From contig JABCSY010000024.1 in the NCBI GenBank assembly GCA_018238625.1, forward strand, positions 1 to 44,537: a stretch of DNA of 44,537 nucleotides, in the 5' to 3' direction. The DNA comes from Promethearchaeota archaeon. Lineage in GTDB: Archaea > Asgardarchaeota > Lokiarchaeia > Sigyniarchaeales > SOKP01. This document shows, one piece after another, positions 34,749 through 42,514 of this stretch. Every line of letters begins with the position of its first letter. The first letter of the stretch is position 1. The notes below the pieces were generated by a model that saw nothing but the letters and a program-made list of their open reading frames with translations, did no database searches and was not told where the DNA came from. Position numbers and translations under genes: made by a program.

Positions 34749-36092
34749 CACTTTCGCAAAAGAAAACACATCCCCTTAGGGTTGTGATGAATTTTGCCTT
34801 AATCATTAAAAATTATACCTCTCTTTCTTTAAATACGAAATAATCCGTGCTTAATTAATGCAACTCGTTCGACAAGTTCAATTCAAACATTCGAAATTAT
34901 TGGACGAAATTACTTTTCTTTCAAAAAACTTGTTTAACGTCGCCACCTATACAGTTCGACAACGATTCTTCATGGATCGTCATTGGATTAGATATAACGA
35001 GTTATGGAAATTGCTAAAAACTCACGAATCGTATAGAAAACTACAAGAATCGTGCGGATCTCATCCGCCACAGCAAGTCCTTAAACAAGTAGATCGAAAC
35101 TTTAAGAGCTTTTTTAAAGCGATTAAAATGTGGAAAAAAGAACCGTTTAAATTTCAAGGAATGCCAAGGCTCCCACGTTACAAGCGTAAGAACGGTCGTA
35201 ATTTAGTCTATTTCACATCTTTACAATGTAGGTTGAAGGACAGTTTTGTTTTACTCACGAGAAAGATGGAAAGGTTAGGCTTTCCGAGAATTAAAACGGA
35301 TCTCGAAAGCGTGAAAGGAGTTCGCATCGTTCCTTTCGGGGATCGATATAACATCGAATTGATCTACGACTACGAGCCACGAGACTTGTACTTGAACGAG
35401 GATAACGTGTTAGGGATCGATTTAGGACTTAACAACATCGTAACTGCGTCAGATAACGTTGGAAACAACCCACTGATTATCAAAGGCGGTGTCGTGAAGT
35501 CGATCAATCAATTCTATAACAAGCAATTAGCCAAATACAAATCGTTCAGCAAGATTTGTAACGACGCCGAATTAACTAAGCGCATCTTGAAGCTTCATCG
35601 AAAGCGAAACAATAAAATTAGAGATTTTTTCCACAAAACTTCGAGAAAAGTAATCAATTACTGCATTTCTAACGATATAGGAACGATAGTCATCGGGTAT
35701 AACGAGGGTTGGAAGCAAAAGATCGCGATAGGGAAGAAAAACAATCAAAACTTCGTGTCAATACCTTTTCTAAAACTTGTTCGACAAATCGAATACAAAT
35801 CCGAGATGGTCGGAATTAAAGTAGTGAGAATCACCGAAGAATATACTTCGCAAACTTGCTCTTCGTGCGGAGTCGTTCGCAAGTCAAACCGCAAGTATCG
35901 CGGTCTATATGCGTGTAATGAGTGCGGGTTAGTATTAAATGCCGATGTGAACGCTTCAAGAAACATGATACAGAAAGGAGTCCCTGAGTCCAAGTGGTTA
36001 GGGGATAGAGGATGTTTGAACCATCCATTAGTGTTAAAAGTTTAACGCCTCTTAACCTACGAATCCAAGCCCTTTAGGGCGTGGTAGTTCAA
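34749..36092 (+). mobile_element. IS200/IS605-family tnpB-only (IS1341-type) element, 1344 bp
   Basis: Left hairpin CACATCCCCTTAGGGTTGTG (34767-34786) lies 18 nt after TTTAT. Right end GAAT-CCAAGCCCTTTAGGGCGTGG-TAGT-TCAA has the IS608-type GAAT guide and TCAA cleavage site. No tnpA, no TSD. Confidence 0.9.
34858..36045 (+). CDS. tnpB: RNA-guided endonuclease TnpB
   Basis: GIDLGL, IVIGYNEGWKQ, EEYTSQTCSSC...CNEC, NADVNAS. Confidence 0.95.
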   Translation: MQLVRQVQFKHSKLLDEITFLSKNLFNVATYTVRQRFFMDRHWIRYNELWKLLKTHESYRKLQESCGSHPPQQVLKQVDRNFKSFFKAIKMWKKEPFKFQGMPRLPRYKRKNGRNLVYFTSLQCRLKDSFVLLTRKMERLGFPRIKTDLESVKGVRIVPFGDRYNIELIYDYEPRDLYLNEDNVLGIDLGLNNIVTASDNVGNNPLIIKGGVVKSINQFYNKQLAKYKSFSKICNDAELTKRILKLHRKRNNKIRDFFHKTSRKVINYCISNDIGTIVIGYNEGWKQKIAIGKKNNQNFVSIPFLKLVRQIEYKSEMVGIKVVRITEEYTSQTCSSCGVVRKSNRKYRGLYACNECGLVLNADVNASRNMIQKGVPESKWLGDRGCLNHPLVLKV

Positions 36093-37046: not shown

Positions 37047-38147
37047 TTAAATCCTTCTTTTACGCCAAATTAAATAAATAGCGGCTATGATAATTCCAGA
37101 AATTGACGTAACTATAATTAACATAAAAAAGTTAAACTCAACCATGAAAATATCTTCGTTTAAAAGATCTAAGGAATTAAAACCTTTAAGTATTTCAAAG
37201 GTATAGTAAGAAGCGCTAATGGAAGAGAGCCTCTGATCATTTTCTTCGCTATGATCGCTAAAACCGCCGTCTTGAAAGTTCTGATGGTTTAGAACCCAAT
37301 TTACAGTTGCTTCTTTATTCAATTCGTTACTATTTATTATCCTAATTCCTTCAACGCAAAAATAGGTGCTGCTTAATAAGGAATTTTGGGCAAATACATC
37401 AGGTAAATATCCACCGTAATTTTCGAGATTATCATGATCGTTTACGTAAAACGATTTCAAATAATTCAATGTGCTAGTTTGATTTGTTAAATCACTAATT
37501 TCTCCTAATTCTTTAACTAAATAAATGGCGTAATAAGTAGTGAGCAAGGTAGATGATAAAGATTGGTTTCCTCCATAGCCACCATCAGTATTGTTGCACG
37601 ATAACACCCAATTTTTATGAAGTGTTTGATTCTCAACTGGTTCGTCGATTAAAGTAAATATGTTATACATATAGAAAGTCGAGATCAGATTTGCACTAGT
37701 AGATGTGTTAGTAGGACTAAATCCACCCGTACTTTGAACCGTCTCATTTATGTATACATAAATCTTATCGTGCAAATTTGAATCTAATTGAGTTCCAAGG
37801 GAATCTAGCGTACTTAAAAGATAAAATAAGTCATATATATCAATTACTTCTTCGTTAAACATAGAAGTAATTTCATCTTCCAAGTATACTTCTAAAGTTG
37901 GAATATCTACTTCTTTAATCGCTTGTAAAAAACCTTCAATTTTATATGCGCCGTAAAAGTCTATAATTTCTATAGCGTTAGCAGTATCTTGTGATGATGT
38001 GCCAAAACTCTCGTTGCCATTATGGTTTTCGTAAAGAAAATCGATTAAATGAAGCTGTCGGGTTTTTGCTGATGCTATGGGAGCAATACCCAACAACAAG
38101 GTTATTATTAGCGCTAAAAACGTTAAACTACGAAGTTTGTATTTCAA
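37047..38147 (-). CDS. Prenyltransferase/squalene-oxidase-repeat protein, exported and membrane anchored
   Basis: Repeats QSTGGF, CNNTDGGYG, ENYGGY, QNFQDGGFS, each followed by an S/TxY helix; signal peptide; C-terminal TM plus RKRR. Confidence 0.8.
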   Translation of the reverse strand: MKYKLRSLTFLALIITLLLGIAPIASAKTRQLHLIDFLYENHNGNESFGTSSQDTANAIEIIDFYGAYKIEGFLQAIKEVDIPTLEVYLEDEITSMFNEEVIDIYDLFYLLSTLDSLGTQLDSNLHDKIYVYINETVQSTGGFSPTNTSTSANLISTFYMYNIFTLIDEPVENQTLHKNWVLSCNNTDGGYGGNQSLSSTLLTTYYAIYLVKELGEISDLTNQTSTLNYLKSFYVNDHDNLENYGGYLPDVFAQNSLLSSTYFCVEGIRIINSNELNKEATVNWVLNHQNFQDGGFSDHSEENDQRLSSISASYYTFEILKGFNSLDLLNEDIFMVEFNFFMLIIVTSISGIIIAAIYLIWRKRRI

Positions 38148-38571: not shown

Positions 38572-39633
38572 TTGGATAATTTAAGGAAAGGGCGTTTCTT
38601 TTCTCCGGAAACTATGGAGGCAATAATGTCGACAGTTCAGCAAAAACTCCAAGAAGATTTCGGCTATCTTTATTTACTTTCGAACGATATTTTGCAAGAC
38701 GGTTTAATGACCGATTACGAATATCAACTTCTTGACTTGTACTCTAACTTTCTTTCTAAAGCAGGTAGCTACGCAAATCAGCGAGGTTTAAACCTCTTCG
38801 CACCAGACGAGAGTACCATTTTGAATCAATACGATTCAGAAAAGTGGGAAGACGAAAGGGTCAAGGGGTATGGCATTGTTTTCCATCTTTGCCAATTCTT
38901 GGGGTTTGACCCGTTATTCTTTGAGCCTTTAGATAAGGGAATCTTTAAAAACCGTGGGTGGTTACGGCATCATTTTCGGGATTGGATTTATAGAAAGACC
39001 TCCAGCAGAGTCAGCGATACTTTGCTTACCGATAATAAGAAACACAGCGCTTACGAGCAATATAATGAGGGTTTTATCGTTGCACTCATGAACGGATTAA
39101 TCGAAGCCATCCAATTAAAGAAGGACGAGATTACTCCGACAGACTTGAAAAATTCGCTCGAAAAACACATGGAAAAATACTTGAGCGACCAAGGAGGCAC
39201 GACCCCAGAAGGAAATAGCGTCGGAGAGCTCGTGAACAAAGTCTTTGGTATCTGGAAGGGAAACGGGGACGCTGATTTCAAGGACCATTTGGATAAATTG
39301 AACGAGATAAGAGCAAAATATTTATCAAAGAAAACTGGTCGATTTGAGTATTCTATATTCTTAGAAGGTGAATACGACATGGACTCGAAGAGCCGATTCG
39401 TGAAGAACGCGAGGGACTTCCACACTCTCTTGAGAAACGATCAGGTTAGCGGGTCCGCCAGAGATTTGTACATCACTCAACTCGATTTCGATTACATGCA
39501 GCGAATATTTCCGGCAGCCGGCAGCACGCAGTCACGCATCACGGACTTTATCTTTATATTTAGCACCGTGCCTTCGAGAAACATCAATGTCGAGTGGGTT
39601 AATTACTTAGAAAAGCAAGTCTGGAAGATTTAA
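38572..39633 (+). CDS. Hypothetical protein, probably 5'-truncated, with an HNH-like motif
   Basis: Frame open from 38485 without an ATG until well inside; RHHF...SRVSDTLLTDNKKH; GC-richer than the host genes. Confidence 0.55.
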   Translation: MDNLRKGRFFSPETMEAIMSTVQQKLQEDFGYLYLLSNDILQDGLMTDYEYQLLDLYSNFLSKAGSYANQRGLNLFAPDESTILNQYDSEKWEDERVKGYGIVFHLCQFLGFDPLFFEPLDKGIFKNRGWLRHHFRDWIYRKTSSRVSDTLLTDNKKHSAYEQYNEGFIVALMNGLIEAIQLKKDEITPTDLKNSLEKHMEKYLSDQGGTTPEGNSVGELVNKVFGIWKGNGDADFKDHLDKLNEIRAKYLSKKTGRFEYSIFLEGEYDMDSKSRFVKNARDFHTLLRNDQVSGSARDLYITQLDFDYMQRIFPAAGSTQSRITDFIFIFSTVPSRNINVEWVNYLEKQVWKI

Positions 39634-39751
39634 ATAGCGAATTAATTAATTTATTTTTCATTTTTTTTAATTTCTTTACTTATCAAAAATATTTAAACCA
39701 AAATTAGCGCGGTTGTTTAATTTAAATAGAAACATTTACTTGGTAAATACG

Positions 39752-40153
39752 ATGAAAAGAAAAAAAACGATTTCCGTTCGGCACCCGCAGTTGGAAAGGT
39801 TTCGGAACGCCCTAAGGGAAGTAATTTTTAGAGTTAAGCTCGTTGAGCTAAGGGAGATAAGAAAAGATGGGAAAGATTTGGAGCCTACAGAAAGCAATGC
39901 GGACCTGAAGCAGATGAAGGTTTTATCCGACAAGCGCAGCAAGCTTGAGAGGGCTTGGAATAAGTCTCTTTGCGTGTGTTCCTTGTGCGGCTCTCGGACC
40001 AGCAACATGACGTTCAATCCGTTTATGGAGGAGTGGTTTTGCGTTGACTGTTACGAAAAGAATCAGGGGTTTTACAAGGCCAAGGCGAGAAAAGGGCAGA
40101 TCTGGAACTCCGAAAATTACGTTCGCACGCCCTCTACCAAGTGGTGGCCTTAG
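39752..40153 (+). CDS. Basic coiled-coil protein with C4 zinc finger
   Basis: CVCSLC...WFCVDC; ATG 39752 preferred over TTG 39713. Confidence 0.7.
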   Translation: MKRKKTISVRHPQLERFRNALREVIFRVKLVELREIRKDGKDLEPTESNADLKQMKVLSDKRSKLERAWNKSLCVCSLCGSRTSNMTFNPFMEEWFCVDCYEKNQGFYKAKARKGQIWNSENYVRTPSTKWWP

Positions 40154-40391: not shown

Positions 40392-41912
40392 TTAGAAGAT
40401 TTCGCTAATATCCTTGTACAATAAGTCGCTGTTTGCTTGAAATTCCTCGCGCGTAACAAACAAACTCTGGAACGATGGTAAGCTTCCTAATATACTAGCG
40501 CCATTGAATATGGCAAATTGGAGATTATCAGGAACGAAAAATCTTGTCACTTCATCAGATGAGTTGTAAAAACCAGAAAATTCTCTAGCAGGAGCCGCTT
40601 GTTTAATAATATCATGAGGTATCTCTGGTATATCGGTTGATTGAAAACTTTCACCACAATAAGGGCAGAATACAGAGTCATTATCTGAAATTGTTTTTTT
40701 ACACTTAGAACAAATTGTTTTTCCATCCACAACCTCTGTCTTCTTCTTTATGGGAAAGCCACCAATAGAAAGCTCTGGCAAAACTATTCTCCCCCCACAA
40801 GATGGACAGAATTCCTTACCATCAGATAGATCTACTAATACACCACAATTTGGACAATTATCTTTTTTTTTTCGTGTTTTTCCCTTTAATTCCATTTTTT
40901 TAGTTTTAGAAGGTTGAACAATTTTAGGTTTAGGAATTTTTCCTAACTTGGGGATTAATTGGCCTAATTCCAATCTTAACCTTTCTTCAAATCCAGAATA
41001 TGAGAGATTACCACCTGCAATCATAATATGGGAGAGAAGGTCGCTCCAAAAATATTTGTCTATCCCTTGTAGAGCGTTAATTACTGCTTGTGGAATGTTT
41101 AATATGTTAAAACCTAGTAAACTGGGTTGAAATAATACCTCGGGAGCTTCATGGAAAATATAGTTAGGAATTTCAATACTAGAACCATCTGGCATGGCAA
41201 AACTAAAACTCTCGTTTAATTTAGGAGGATTTTTGGGATTTAAAACGAAGTAACAGTTTTTTTCTTTAATTTCTTTAATTATCTCGTCAACAGCACTGGA
41301 CTCAATATTAATACCCTCCCTCATTAATAAATTTTTTAAATGTTGATTCACATCGGTGCCAGCTAAAGTCAATTTTTGAACTGATTGATCAACAATCTGC
41401 CCACCTATAATCGGAGTGATCCACGTAATCCCATCACCGCTCTCAATTACCAACCCCGTCGTTAAGCCTACGCTAAATAATGCCAAAACTGGTGTTGGAA
41501 CCATTATTAAGCTTTTTACTCTATGAGTTTCGTATAAAACACGAGCAATATATTCTTTAGTTTCTCGCTGGAGAAATGGTGGTTCGGTATATAACACGGG
41601 GTAATTAGAAAGATTTTCAATCCTTAAAAGGGAATAGAAGATGTAATTTAAAATCTCGTAATAATCGTCCCAATCCATGATCGCCCCCCTTTCGATAGGG
41701 TGCTTTATTTTAAGGACACCGCGCATCTTAACAACATCATTACCTATATAGATGTTCCTACCGCTTACATCGACCATAACAGCTTTATATTTTTCAGTAC
41801 CCGTGATTGTGGGAAAAACATACCTAGGACTGGGCTCTCCCGCAAATCCTATTTTAGTATAGGCTGAACCAATGTCAACTATAATCGGAGTTCCGGGTAA
41901 TGGTATTGCCAT
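40392..41912 (-). CDS. Actin-related protein with double zinc-ribbon insertion
   Basis: IVDIGSAYTKIGFAG, HPIERG, TEPP, ESGDG, EIKEK, PEVLFQPS, AGGN...GFEERL, GASILGSL. Confidence 0.95.
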   Translation of the reverse strand: MAIPLPGTPIIVDIGSAYTKIGFAGEPSPRYVFPTITGTEKYKAVMVDVSGRNIYIGNDVVKMRGVLKIKHPIERGAIMDWDDYYEILNYIFYSLLRIENLSNYPVLYTEPPFLQRETKEYIARVLYETHRVKSLIMVPTPVLALFSVGLTTGLVIESGDGITWITPIIGGQIVDQSVQKLTLAGTDVNQHLKNLLMREGINIESSAVDEIIKEIKEKNCYFVLNPKNPPKLNESFSFAMPDGSSIEIPNYIFHEAPEVLFQPSLLGFNILNIPQAVINALQGIDKYFWSDLLSHIMIAGGNLSYSGFEERLRLELGQLIPKLGKIPKPKIVQPSKTKKMELKGKTRKKKDNCPNCGVLVDLSDGKEFCPSCGGRIVLPELSIGGFPIKKKTEVVDGKTICSKCKKTISDNDSVFCPYCGESFQSTDIPEIPHDIIKQAAPAREFSGFYNSSDEVTRFFVPDNLQFAIFNGASILGSLPSFQSLFVTREEFQANSDLLYKDISEIF

Positions 41913-42091: not shown

Positions 42092-42514
42092 TTAATCGAT
42101 TTTTAAAGATTTTTCCAGTTTCTTTTCGATCCCTTCTAATTCAATTAAAAGATTTTTGTATGTCTTCAATAAATATAAGCCCCAATCGCTTAATTTCACC
42201 CAACCTCCTCCTCCAAGACCTCCTTTTTTTGTTTCTACTGGAGATATTCCGGTTCTAGCTTTTATTTTATTTAAAATATTCCACGCATATTTGTAAGAGT
42301 AGCCGCATTCTTTTGCAGCCTGAGTTAAAGATATAGGACCTTTAGCATCGGGTTTATCGATGTTTTCAAGAAGATTAGCCCAACCAGATCCTAAAATATT
42401 TTTACGGTCATCATTCTGAAATTCTAGCCAAAATTTAATTCCAAAACCTATTTTAGCTTTTAATTTTTCGATATCGGGTTTATCTTCTTGTAGTTTATCG
42501 GATTGTTTTTCCAT
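42092..42514 (-). CDS. ModE N-terminal-like winged-helix regulator
   Basis: ILGSG...LLENI, SLTQAAKECGYSYKYAW, VETKKGGLGGGG..LS..G. Confidence 0.85.
   Translation of the reverse strand: MEKQSDKLQEDKPDIEKLKAKIGFGIKFWLEFQNDDRKNILGSGWANLLENIDKPDAKGPISLTQAAKECGYSYKYAWNILNKIKARTGISPVETKKGGLGGGGWVKLSDWGLYLLKTYKNLLIELEGIEKKLEKSLKID

What the first reader, a model, noticed from the sequence alone, without database searches (positions are those of the whole stretch)
40392..41912. Actin-related protein with a ~130-aa basic, double-zinc-ribbon insert
Seen: a complete actin fold (~376 aa without the insert). Between ERLRLELGQL (actin ~311-320) and FFVPDNLQFAIFNG (actin ~329-342) lie a Lys-rich linker and two ribbons (CPNC/CPSC, CSKC/CPYC). 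The D-loop (KAVMVDV) and hydrophobic plug (PSLLGF) are retained. Known: eukaryotic ARPs are specialised by loop insertions, but I know none with zinc ribbons. Inference: a specialised Asgard ARP that couples an actin surface to nucleic acid, membrane or protein partners, perhaps as a capper or nucleator.
Basis: partly seen in the sequence, partly recalled or inferred. Interest (0 to 1): 0.8.

Follow-up and report, generated by a model that had tools for sequence, protein, structure and literature searches.

The report
Zinc-ribbon actin-related protein of Lokiarchaeia
A conserved archaeal relative of actin carries one or two small zinc-binding modules on a flexible arm, a design I found described for no other actin-related protein, and it probably caps, anchors or links the cell's actin filaments rather than building them.

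Summary
ORF 40392..41912 (-) encodes a 506-aa protein with a complete actin fold (Pfam Actin E 1e-72; AF2 pLDDT 80.5; Foldseek TM 0.91 to actin). A 130-aa insert lies between actin K326 and I327 and holds two C4 zinc ribbons. It is not a chimera: 119 of the 120 listed database homologues share the architecture, and 145 of 153 species genomes of the same order encode an orthologue. None was found in 7 other genomes of the class; the insert found none in 239 genomes of other Asgard classes. All 8 Cys are kept in 82 of 83 aligned members. The first ribbon is universal; some lineages lack the second. The phosphate- and adenosine-binding residues are invariant, but catalytic Q137 and H161 are replaced in 83 of 83 (T/S, W) and H73 is R, as in nuclear Arp8. 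The D-loop and pointed face stay lokiactin-like, while the subdomain-3 barbed-face loops are remodelled. The basic charge is lineage-specific. Best reading (about 0.35): an ATP-binding, hydrolysis-poor ARP that docks on lokiactin and offers flexible zinc ribbons as a partner-binding arm, acting as a cap or anchor. No binding test could be run. I found no paper describing this architecture. It is a new variant of a known kind.

The parts
40392..41912 (-). Whole CDS of the zinc-ribbon ARP (506 aa + stop)
40938..41912 (-). Actin core, N-terminal part (residues 1-325; subdomains 1, 2, 4 and most of 3)
   Evidence: (pLDDT mostly >88)
41757..41789 (-). D-loop equivalent (residues 42-52, YKAVMVDVSGR); 91-100% conserved in the family at most positions and lokiactin-like
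40548..40937 (-). 130-aa insert (residues 326-455) between actin K326 and I327
40857..40937 (-). Linker 1 (326-352), Lys-rich here (+9), disordered in the model (pLDDT <50 at 332-346); preceded by invariant L323-G324 and P327
40797..40856 (-). Zinc ribbon 1 (C353, C356, C369, C372); the four Cys invariant in 83 of 83
40713..40796 (-). Inter-ribbon spacer (373-400), flexible (pLDDT <50 at 379-389)
40656..40712 (-). Zinc ribbon 2 (C401, C404, C416, C419); present in 82 of 83 aligned members; absent in the family-f4 orthologue fetched (L045) and in one f3 genus
40548..40655 (-). Acidic tail of the insert (420-455, net -5) with the nearly invariant A442-x-E444-F445 motif (40578-40589); 445-448 is a short strand in the model
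40395..40547 (-). Actin core, C-terminal part (residues 456-506; strand RFFVP, helices of subdomains 3 and 1)
42092..42514 (-). Conserved upstream neighbour: 140-aa ModE-N-like winged-helix protein (TIGR00637 E 1.8e-12, below its cut-off; no Pfam hit)
37047..38147 (-). Conserved downstream neighbour (directly adjacent in relatives): 366-aa prenyltransferase alpha-alpha-toroid protein with a hydrophobic N-terminus

Best explanation
The gene encodes an order-specific actin-related protein that still binds nucleotide but has lost the residues actin uses to hydrolyse ATP, so it is a static building block, not a treadmilling one. Its pointed-end face (D-loop, subdomains 2 and 4) is kept lokiactin-like, so it can dock on the barbed face of a lokiactin subunit. 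Its own barbed-end corner of subdomain 3 is remodelled and sprouts a flexible arm with one or two independent C4 zinc ribbons. I read it as an adaptor that ends or anchors a lokiactin filament (or holds a lokiactin monomer) and uses the ribbons to hold a protein partner, as the zinc ribbon of haloarchaeal CdpC holds FtsZ1. Shown: fold, insert position, conservation, residue replacements, distribution. Inferred: nucleotide state, docking on lokiactin, capping, and the nature of the ribbon partner.
For: Fold and insert site. The family is real and under selection: 119 of 120 listed homologues carry Actin plus a zinc-ribbon family; 8 Cys in 82 of 83 members, with invariant L323, G324, P327 (I326 nearly so) and nearly invariant A442/E444/F445 at the two bases of the insert. 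Nucleotide scaffold kept in 83 of 83 (D11, G13, K18, G156, G158, K213, E214, G301, G302), but Q137 is T/S/A (0 of 83 Q), H161 is W/T/F/Y (0 of 83 H), H73 is R in 83 of 83, and D154 is E in 81 of 83. Passages of PMC3510490 call Q137 critical for filament-activated hydrolysis and H161 catalytically active. They report Q137E, H161S and H73R in Arp8, which binds ATP tightly with low ATPase. Pointed-face consensus is identical to lokiactin at 17 of 30 positions (57%), against 146 of 371 (39%) overall, 18 of 47 (38%) on the barbed face and 10 of 29 (34%) lateral. Within-family conservation is highest on the pointed face (0.86 against 0.79 overall). The sister-type ARP of the same genome has only 10 of 30 there. 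Actin 283-294 and the W-loop are rewritten. The ribbons fold as two separate beads on a floppy linker (pTM 0.32, ribbons pLDDT 72-81, linker about 50). It evolves much faster than lokiactin (stem 0.68, long internal branches), as ARPs in complexes do. Precedent for an archaeal zinc ribbon binding a cytoskeletal polymer: CdpC C-terminal C4 ribbon binds FtsZ1, and Cys mutants lose binding (passages of bioRxiv 10.64898/2026.07.16.738847).
Against: No interaction was tested: the complex job with lokiactin was not folded. The interface residue sets are recalled from the F-actin literature, not taken from a tool. 17 of 30 against a 39% background is only a modest excess. The hydrophobic cleft of the barbed face is well conserved (L140, S141, F143, S144, G146, T148, I345, L346, L349, F352 at 92-100%), so the barbed face may still accept a D-loop, which would mean polymerisation, or a profilin or gelsolin. 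Actin K326 and K328 are surface-exposed in F-actin (recalled), so an insert between 326 and 327 might point outward and be compatible with a filament. Gene neighbours give no cytoskeletal link.
Confidence: 0.35

Rival explanations
1. It is a polymerising or co-polymerising actin paralogue: it enters lokiactin filaments (or forms its own) and the insert projects from the filament surface, decorating it with zinc ribbons that bundle filaments or tie them to other structures.
For: D-loop, hydrophobic plug region and barbed-face hydrophobic cleft are all conserved in the family. The insert lies next to actin K326/K328, which are solvent-exposed on F-actin (recalled). The linkers are long and disordered, so the ribbons could reach away from the contact.
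Against: Q137 and H161 are lost in 83 of 83. Actin 283-294 and the 322-325 loop, which I recall as longitudinal contacts, are rewritten or interrupted. Lateral-contact positions are only 34% lokiactin-like. Evolution is fast compared with lokiactin. In the one cultured relative studied, the three ARPs were transcribed severalfold less than lokiactin (passages of PMC9834061; which of the three is the orthologue was not determined).
Confidence: 0.22
2. It is a non-cytoskeletal ARP, like nuclear Arp4/Arp8: a nucleotide-locked actin fold inside a DNA- or RNA-associated complex, with the zinc ribbons and basic stretches binding nucleic acid.
For: The same active-site drift as Arp8 (H73R, Q137 and H161 replaced). 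Zinc ribbons are common nucleic-acid binders (general knowledge). Linker charge is +9 in this protein. A ModE-N-like winged-helix gene sits upstream on the same strand in 7 of 7 compared loci of family f1 and in 2 of 4 of family f3.
Against: Net charge of linker and insert is not conserved (insert positive in 48 of 83; distant members -2 to -24). The D-loop is conserved and lokiactin-like, unlike Arp8, whose D-loop carries a covering insertion. There is no helicase or remodeller in the neighbourhood. A CBS-domain-looking gene (my reading of its sequence; no family search) or 179 bp separates the winged-helix gene from the ARP, so co-transcription is not evident.
Confidence: 0.17
3. It is a membrane-cytoskeleton tether: the ribbons pair with the double-zinc-ribbon tails of membrane proteins (or bind lipid through the basic linker) and so fix an actin-fold protein at the membrane.
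For: The closest relatives of the insert in the same genome are cytoplasmic tails of membrane proteins. One is a C-terminal Lys-rich linker plus double ribbon after a TM helix (L050, E 4.6e-5). The other is an N-terminal double ribbon on a protein that I read as a CPBP-type intramembrane protease from its sequence (no family search) (L051, E 1.5e-3). CdpC is a dual-ribbon membrane anchor for FtsZ1.
Against: The similarity to those tails is weak and is what any CPxCG ribbon gives. No amphipathic helix or TM segment is seen in the insert. The charge is not conserved. Ribbon-ribbon pairing is a guess.
Confidence: 0.14

Closest known systems
Lokiactin (the conserved Asgard actin; PDB 9wc4 'HC1 actin' is the best solved match, E 8e-73)
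   Same: Same fold and length of core; same phosphate-1, phosphate-2 and adenosine motifs; similar D-loop.
   Different: Lokiactin keeps Q137, H161 and H73, has no insert, occurs in all classes searched and evolves slowly. This protein is a separate clade (100/100), found in one order only, with consensus identity of 39% to lokiactin.
Eukaryotic nuclear ARPs Arp8 and Arp4 (INO80)
   Same: Actin fold specialised by loop insertions. Arp8 has H73R and replaced Q137/H161, with tight ATP binding and little hydrolysis. Arp8 insertion V sits at the outer barbed end of subdomain 3, and a long flexible insertion is thought to mediate protein contacts (passages of PMC3510490).
   Different: No orthology is shown. 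Their large insertions cover the D-loop/pointed end and the plug, whereas here the D-loop is intact and the large insert is at 326/327. None of the passages read mentions zinc ribbons. Those proteins work on chromatin.
Arp1/centractin (some JGI records name family members 'centractin')
   Same: PDB scores to Arp1 equal those to actin (about 2e-67).
   Different: In the tree the Arp1 clade (identified through P0176, 599 bits to Arp1) lies inside the eukaryote-like group, away from this family. The 'centractin' label is a similarity artefact.
CdpC of Haloferax volcanii (dual zinc-ribbon membrane anchor of FtsZ1)
   Same: C4 zinc ribbons joined by disordered linkers, used to bind a cytoskeletal polymer; the authors report remote multi-ribbon relatives in Lokiarchaeia (passages).
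   Different: CdpC has no actin fold and binds a tubulin homologue. Homology of the ribbons to CdpC was not tested, because I had no CdpC sequence from a tool.
Pfam DZR (PF12773) proteins, e.g. CdrL of Halobacteria and the membrane-protein tails L050/L051 of this genome
   Same: Two CxxC...CxxC ribbons in tandem, above the Pfam cut-off.
   Different: There the module is terminal. Here it is inserted in a surface loop of an actin fold, and the two ribbons are predicted to be independent beads.

Membership tests
Actin family (Pfam PF00022) | Profile match above the curated cut-off | tested here: met
   245.3 bits against cut-off 27
Actin family (Pfam PF00022) | Four-subdomain actin fold | tested here: met
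   AF2 pLDDT 80.5, core mostly >88; Foldseek TM 0.91-0.92 normalised to actin chains
Actin family (Pfam PF00022) | Phosphate-1, phosphate-2 and adenosine nucleotide-binding residues | tested here: met
   D11, G13, K18, G156, G158, K213, E214, G301, G302 in 83 of 83
Conventional actin / lokiactin | Catalytic Q137 and H161, sensor H73 | tested here: not met
   0 of 83 Q, 0 of 83 H, R in 83 of 83; own lokiactin keeps Q, H, H
Conventional actin / lokiactin | Membership of the lokiactin clade and presence across Asgard classes | tested here: not met
   Separate clade 100/100; orthologues only in one order
Eukaryotic ARP classes (Arp1-Arp10) | Orthology to a named class | tested here: inconclusive
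   Not in the Arp1 clade or the actin clade. Arp2-Arp10 were not identifiably sampled, because naming of database hits was unavailable.
Double zinc ribbon (Pfam PF12773) | Profile match above cut-off and two CxxC-N(12-13)-CxxC units | tested here: met
   32.1 bits against 27.3; 8 Cys in 82 of 83
Double zinc ribbon (Pfam PF12773) | Zinc actually bound | not testable with these tools
   Needs metal analysis of purified protein
CdpC-like multi-ribbon cytoskeleton anchors | Sequence homology to CdpC; membrane-binding amphipathic helix | not tested
   No CdpC sequence was available from a tool. No long helix is predicted in the insert. I claim a resemblance in working principle only.
Filament barbed-end cappers (functional class) | Binds barbed ends and blocks elongation | not testable with these tools
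   The complex job was not folded; needs TIRF or pyrene assays

The most novel reading that the evidence does not exclude
Lokiarchaeales invented, independently of eukaryotes, an ARP that organises actin filaments. A nucleotide-locked actin fold sits at the barbed end of lokiactin filaments and plugs them, through zinc ribbons, into membrane proteins with matching double-ribbon tails or into the FtsZ/division machinery. This would be the first prokaryotic ARP-based filament anchor, and a candidate for how the protrusions of these archaea are built and positioned.
Probability: 0.2. Interest if true: 0.85.

Novelty: new variant of a known kind. Interest (0 to 1): 0.62.

Why it matters
[quoted passage not shown] How their actin cytoskeleton is regulated is an open question: profilins and gelsolins have been studied, but the archaeal ARPs have not. 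This family is present in nearly every genome of one order (145 of 153 species genomes), among them closed genomes, so it could be tested if any member of the order is in culture. It shows that specialising actin by loop insertion, the principle behind all eukaryotic ARPs, also operated in archaea, with a module (zinc ribbon) that I know from no eukaryotic ARP (recalled). It is a concrete handle (antibody, pull-down, in vitro assay with lokiactin) on how filaments are ended, anchored or linked in these cells.

Tried and rejected
Assembly chimera: rejected. The same architecture is found in 119 of 120 listed homologues and in 145 of 153 genomes of the order.

'Basic insert' as the conserved feature: rejected.

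Eukaryotic Arp1 orthology (JGI 'centractin' labels): rejected by the tree.

Compact double-ribbon domain: not supported. The insert folded alone gave pTM 0.32 with two separate ribbons. Its Foldseek search of PDB gave 0 matches at E <= 0.001, only generic single ribbons (Nop10, RanBP2 ZnF, RadD) at E > 0.3, so it gave no functional lead.

Gene-neighbourhood inference: the conserved set is ModE-like wHTH, ARP, prenyltransferase-toroid protein with a signal-like N-terminus, then FolD. It suggests no cytoskeletal partner. I treat it as inherited synteny.

Natural knock-outs: the 7 of 134 family-f1 genomes without the gene include G147 (100% complete) and G233 (92%). Both also lack the two neighbours. 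G233 also lacks FolD. In G147 the flanking 527-aa gene is cut at residue 277, probably at a contig end, and the other flank is missing. So these look like assembly gaps, not losses, and no co-loss argument can be made.

Expression: the look-up of sequencing runs listed RNA runs holding only 5-11% of the sampled words.

Complex with lokiactin: no verdict, as the job was not folded.

Source labels 'Thorarchaeota', 'Heimdallarchaeota', 'Hodarchaeota' and 'Hermodarchaeota' on 63-74% identical proteins conflict with the genome search, which finds the family in one order only. I take them as loose MAG labels but could not check this.

Literature searches found no description: 'Asgard' + 'actin-related protein' + 'zinc ribbon' gave 0 papers; 'lokiactin' + 'insertion' + 'zinc' gave 2 unrelated; 'Asgard' + 'actin' + 'Zn-ribbon' gave 7, 5 listed, of which I read passages of one (unrelated) and judged the others by title and abstract; 'double zinc ribbon' + 'actin' gave 19, none on this; 'actin' + 'zinc ribbon' + 'Lokiarchae' gave 6, none on this. 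The actin trees and tables of PMC9834061 and the asCOG tables of 10.1101/2020.10.19.343400 may list this family without my seeing it.
Full report
OBSERVATION. The window (31-36% G+C around the gene) holds one uninterrupted ORF at 40392..41912 on the minus strand, 506 aa, starting with ATG. Pfam gives Actin at E 1.1e-72 (245 bits, cut-off 27) in two pieces. Between them it gives DZR (32.1 bits, cut-off 27.3) and Zn_ribbon_3 (37 bits, cut-off 27). phmmer against all PDB chains gives 162 hits. The best is 9wc4 'HC1 actin' (8e-73), followed by actins and Arp1 at about 1e-67, and every match is split into residues 6-322 and 457-495. An alignment with an actin of known numbering, the genome's own lokiactin and 83 family members places LIPKLGK on actin 320-326 and TRFFVPDNLQ on actin 327-336. 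The insert is therefore residues 326-455, 130 aa, between actin K326 and I327, and the core is 376 aa. AlphaFold2 with an 83-sequence alignment gives mean pLDDT 80.5 and pTM 0.72. The core is mostly above 88, the two ribbons are at 63-76, and residues 332-346, 379-389 and 426-444 are below 50. Foldseek puts the model on actin chains with TM 0.91-0.92 normalised to the target.

IS IT REAL AND CONSERVED. The word-indexed search of 5.8 billion proteins returned 334 hits. Of the best 120 listed, 119 combine PF00022 with a zinc-ribbon family, nearly all at 498-512 aa and 61-94% identity. The exhaustive search of 50%-identity representatives shows more distant members (P0122-P0129, 40-59% identity) with ribbons at the same site. 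In the 83-sequence alignment the four Cys of ribbon 1 are invariant, and 82 of 83 members have all eight Cys. L323, G324 and P327 before the insert are invariant. A442, E444 and F445 after it are kept in at least 90%. The ESM Atlas holds two clusters (79 and 65 members) of Actin plus DZR, all archaeal and labelled Promethearchaeota. NCBIfam has no model for the family, which explains source names such as 'zinc ribbon domain-containing protein'.

DISTRIBUTION. I searched 400 species-representative genomes of the phylum.
- With the whole protein, matches that reach into the ribbons (E <= 1e-85) occur in 127 of 134 other genomes of the window's family f1, in f2 1 of 1, in f3 10 of 14 and in f4 4 of 4. 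All of these belong to the same order.
- A query of residues 316-506 adds three f3 genomes with partial genes (G133, G134, G144), giving f3 13 of 14. The total is 145 of 153 genomes of the order.
- The three other families of the class gave 0 of 7.
- In other classes the whole protein found only generic actin matches (best 6e-78, ending at residue 326; only three candidates per genome were scored).
- The insert alone (316-456, E <= 1e-12) found 0 of 265 genomes outside f1. That query also misses the diverged f2-f4 orthologues, so it is a weak test for distant forms.
- The seven f1 genomes without a match are the same in all three searches. For the two most complete ones the locus seems unassembled rather than lost.
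- Ribbon number varies. The f4 orthologue that I fetched and read (L045), the distant member P0127 and one f3 genus (L043) have only ribbon 1; the other f3 genomes have two.

PHYLOGENY. The window's genome has six actin-family genes: three lokiactin-like (424-441 bits), one 371-aa ARP that I call ARPb (297 bits), this gene (223 bits) and one divergent ARP (166 bits).

I built a careful IQ-TREE tree (LG+C20+F+G4 PMSF, 52 rows, 374 columns).
- Rows: 12 family members, 6 ARPb orthologues, 9 lokiactins from six families, and 25 of the 52 single-domain representatives used in the quick tree.
- Left out: the long-branched sixth paralogue and locus L086.
- Result: the zinc-ribbon family is monophyletic (100/100, stem 0.68) and ARPb is monophyletic (100/100, stem 0.95).
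- Both lie outside a weakly supported group (88/87) of lokiactins plus eukaryote-like sequences.
- One eukaryote-like clade is Arp1, since P0176 scores 599 bits to Arp1 chains.
- The quick FastTree had joined the family to ARPb at support 90; the careful tree leaves that open.

ARPb too is confined to the same order. The tree has no outgroup, and Arp2-Arp10 could not be recognised because hit naming was switched off. I therefore claim only that the family is a distinct, fast-evolving archaeal ARP lineage, not a member of the lokiactin, actin or Arp1 clades.

ACTIVE SITE. In all 83 members D11, G13, K18, G156, G158, K213, E214, G301 and G302 are kept. Q137 is T (63), S (19) or A (1). H161 is W (78), T, F or Y. 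H73 is R (83). D154 is E (81). G15 is A (76). The genome's lokiactin keeps Q137, H161 and H73. Passages of the Arp8 structure paper (PMC3510490) state the following:
- Q137 is critical for filament-activated hydrolysis and H161 is catalytically active.
- Arp8 has E, S and R at these three places, binds ATP tightly and has only low basal ATPase.
- Arp4 does not hydrolyse ATP.
By analogy (inference) this protein binds nucleotide as a structural cofactor.

SURFACES. I used F-actin contact sets recalled from the literature, not from a tool, and compared family consensus with lokiactin consensus.
- Pointed face (40-50, 61-65, 200-206, 241-247): 17 of 30 identical.
- Barbed face: 18 of 47.
- Lateral contacts: 10 of 29.
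- All positions: 146 of 371.
The D-loop reads YKSVMVDVSAR against lokiactin YTSIMTDVETR and is 91-100% conserved at most positions. ARPb has 10 of 30 on the pointed face. On the barbed face the hydrophobic cleft is conserved, but 283-294 (QGIDKYYWSDLL against SKCDVDLRRDLY) and the W-loop (Y166I, E167N, Y169Q) are changed, and the 322-326 loop carries the insert. This pattern fits a subunit that docks with its pointed face on a lokiactin barbed end and does not offer a normal barbed end itself. The excess is modest, and the conserved cleft also leaves the co-polymer reading open.

THE INSERT. Linker 1 has net charge +9 here. Across the family it is positive in 73 of 83 (median +3), and it is -10 to -2 in the distant members. 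The whole insert is positive in only 48 of 83, and the tail is acidic in 72 of 83. Folded alone with 19 orthologous segments, the insert gives two separately confident ribbons (pLDDT 72-81), a floppy spacer and pTM 0.32, with no significant PDB match. In the full model, short strands at 327-329 and 445-448 flank the insert next to the invariant motifs. I could not inspect contacts. The nearest relatives of the ribbons in the same genome are cytoplasmic tails of two membrane proteins. A 2026 preprint shows that the C4 ribbon of haloarchaeal CdpC binds FtsZ1 directly, that a second ribbon domain associates with the membrane, and that remote multi-ribbon relatives exist in Lokiarchaeia (passages). 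This makes protein binding a reasonable default for archaeal ribbons on disordered linkers.

CONTEXT. In 12 loci from families f1, f3 and f4, the ARP is directly followed on the same strand by a prenyltransferase alpha-alpha-toroid protein with a hydrophobic N-terminus in 10. FolD lies further on in most. A ModE-N-like winged-helix gene lies upstream in 7 of 7 f1 loci and 2 of 4 f3 loci, sometimes with a gene between that looks like a CBS-domain protein from its sequence (my reading; no family search). In this window two genes without relatives in those loci (38572-39633, 39713-40153, plus strand) separate the ARP from the toroid gene, and a TnpB/OrfB gene sits at 34858-36045. None of this points to a partner.

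LITERATURE. Passages of PMC9834061 say that a cultured Lokiarchaeum encodes lokiactin plus three homologues that cluster with ARPs, all transcribed at lower levels than lokiactin; zinc is not mentioned. Passages of PMC8850707 speak of five 'asgardactin' clades and do not mention inserts. PMC13716822, 10.1101/2025.02.26.640444 and 10.1101/2020.10.19.343400 do not mention the architecture in the passages found. Five term searches found no description. Supplements were closed.

VERDICT. The family is real, conserved and order-specific. The architecture, an actin fold with one or two C4 zinc ribbons in the 326/327 loop, appears undescribed in the literature I could search. The most likely mechanism is a hydrolysis-poor ARP adaptor that docks on lokiactin and holds a partner with its ribbons, probably at filament barbed ends (0.35). 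The rivals are a decorated co-polymer (0.22), a nucleic-acid-associated ARP (0.17) and a membrane tether (0.14). It is a new variant of a known kind; interest 0.62.

Noticed in passing
window 34858-36045 (+): IS605-type OrfB/TnpB gene (Pfam OrfB_IS605 and Cas12f1-like TNB), with no counterpart at this position in the 12 related loci compared. It looks like a recent insertion into a conserved gene row.
   Followed up: partly
window 38572-39633 (+) and 39713-40153 (+): Two genes (353 aa with no Pfam hit; 146 aa with a CxxC...CxxC motif and weak DUF4428/Sir1 hits) lie between the ARP and its usual downstream neighbour. Neither has a homologue in the 12 related loci, so this is a lineage-specific insertion of unknown nature.
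   Followed up: partly
L002:156-1445 (-) and L003:179-1420 (-), own genome contigs C16 and C47: Two of the three lokiactin-like paralogues are each followed on the same strand by a paralogous 413-429-aa protein with a central TrmB-type winged helix (E 1e-10). Together with the ModE-like gene next to the zinc-ribbon ARP, actin paralogues in this genome tend to sit beside winged-helix proteins.
   Followed up: partly
L004/L057 (own genome contig C76:25640-26752, -): A second order-restricted ARP ('ARPb', 371 aa) also lacks Q137 (D) and H161 (R) and has a diverged D-loop. It is strongly matched only in families f1 and f3 among 120 genomes sampled.
   Followed up: partly
window 37047-38147 (-): A prenyltransferase alpha-alpha-toroid protein (PF00432, 62.5 bits) with an N-terminal hydrophobic, signal-like segment lies next to the ARP in 10 of 12 compared loci. 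It is probably extracytoplasmic; its function is unknown.
   Followed up: partly
proteins P0031, P0040, P0042, P0070, P0071, P0078 and others: Source labels place 63-74% identical family members in 'Hodarchaeota', 'Hermodarchaeota', 'Heimdallarchaeota' and 'Thorarchaeota', whereas the genome search finds the family in one order only. These are probably loose MAG labels.
   Followed up: no
G399:C97:835-1704 (-), family f33: An actin-like match (39% identity to ARPb over residues 75-365) lies inside a 582-aa open frame in another Asgard class. It is possibly another fused or extended ARP.
   Followed up: no
L042, L043, L044 (family f3 orthologues), after the ribbons: Family f3 inserts carry an extra conserved basic motif (around K-L-D/S-R-K-E-K-K-L-L/I-K-K-T) followed by an acidic S-E-Y-G stretch. 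Family f1 lacks it.
   Followed up: no
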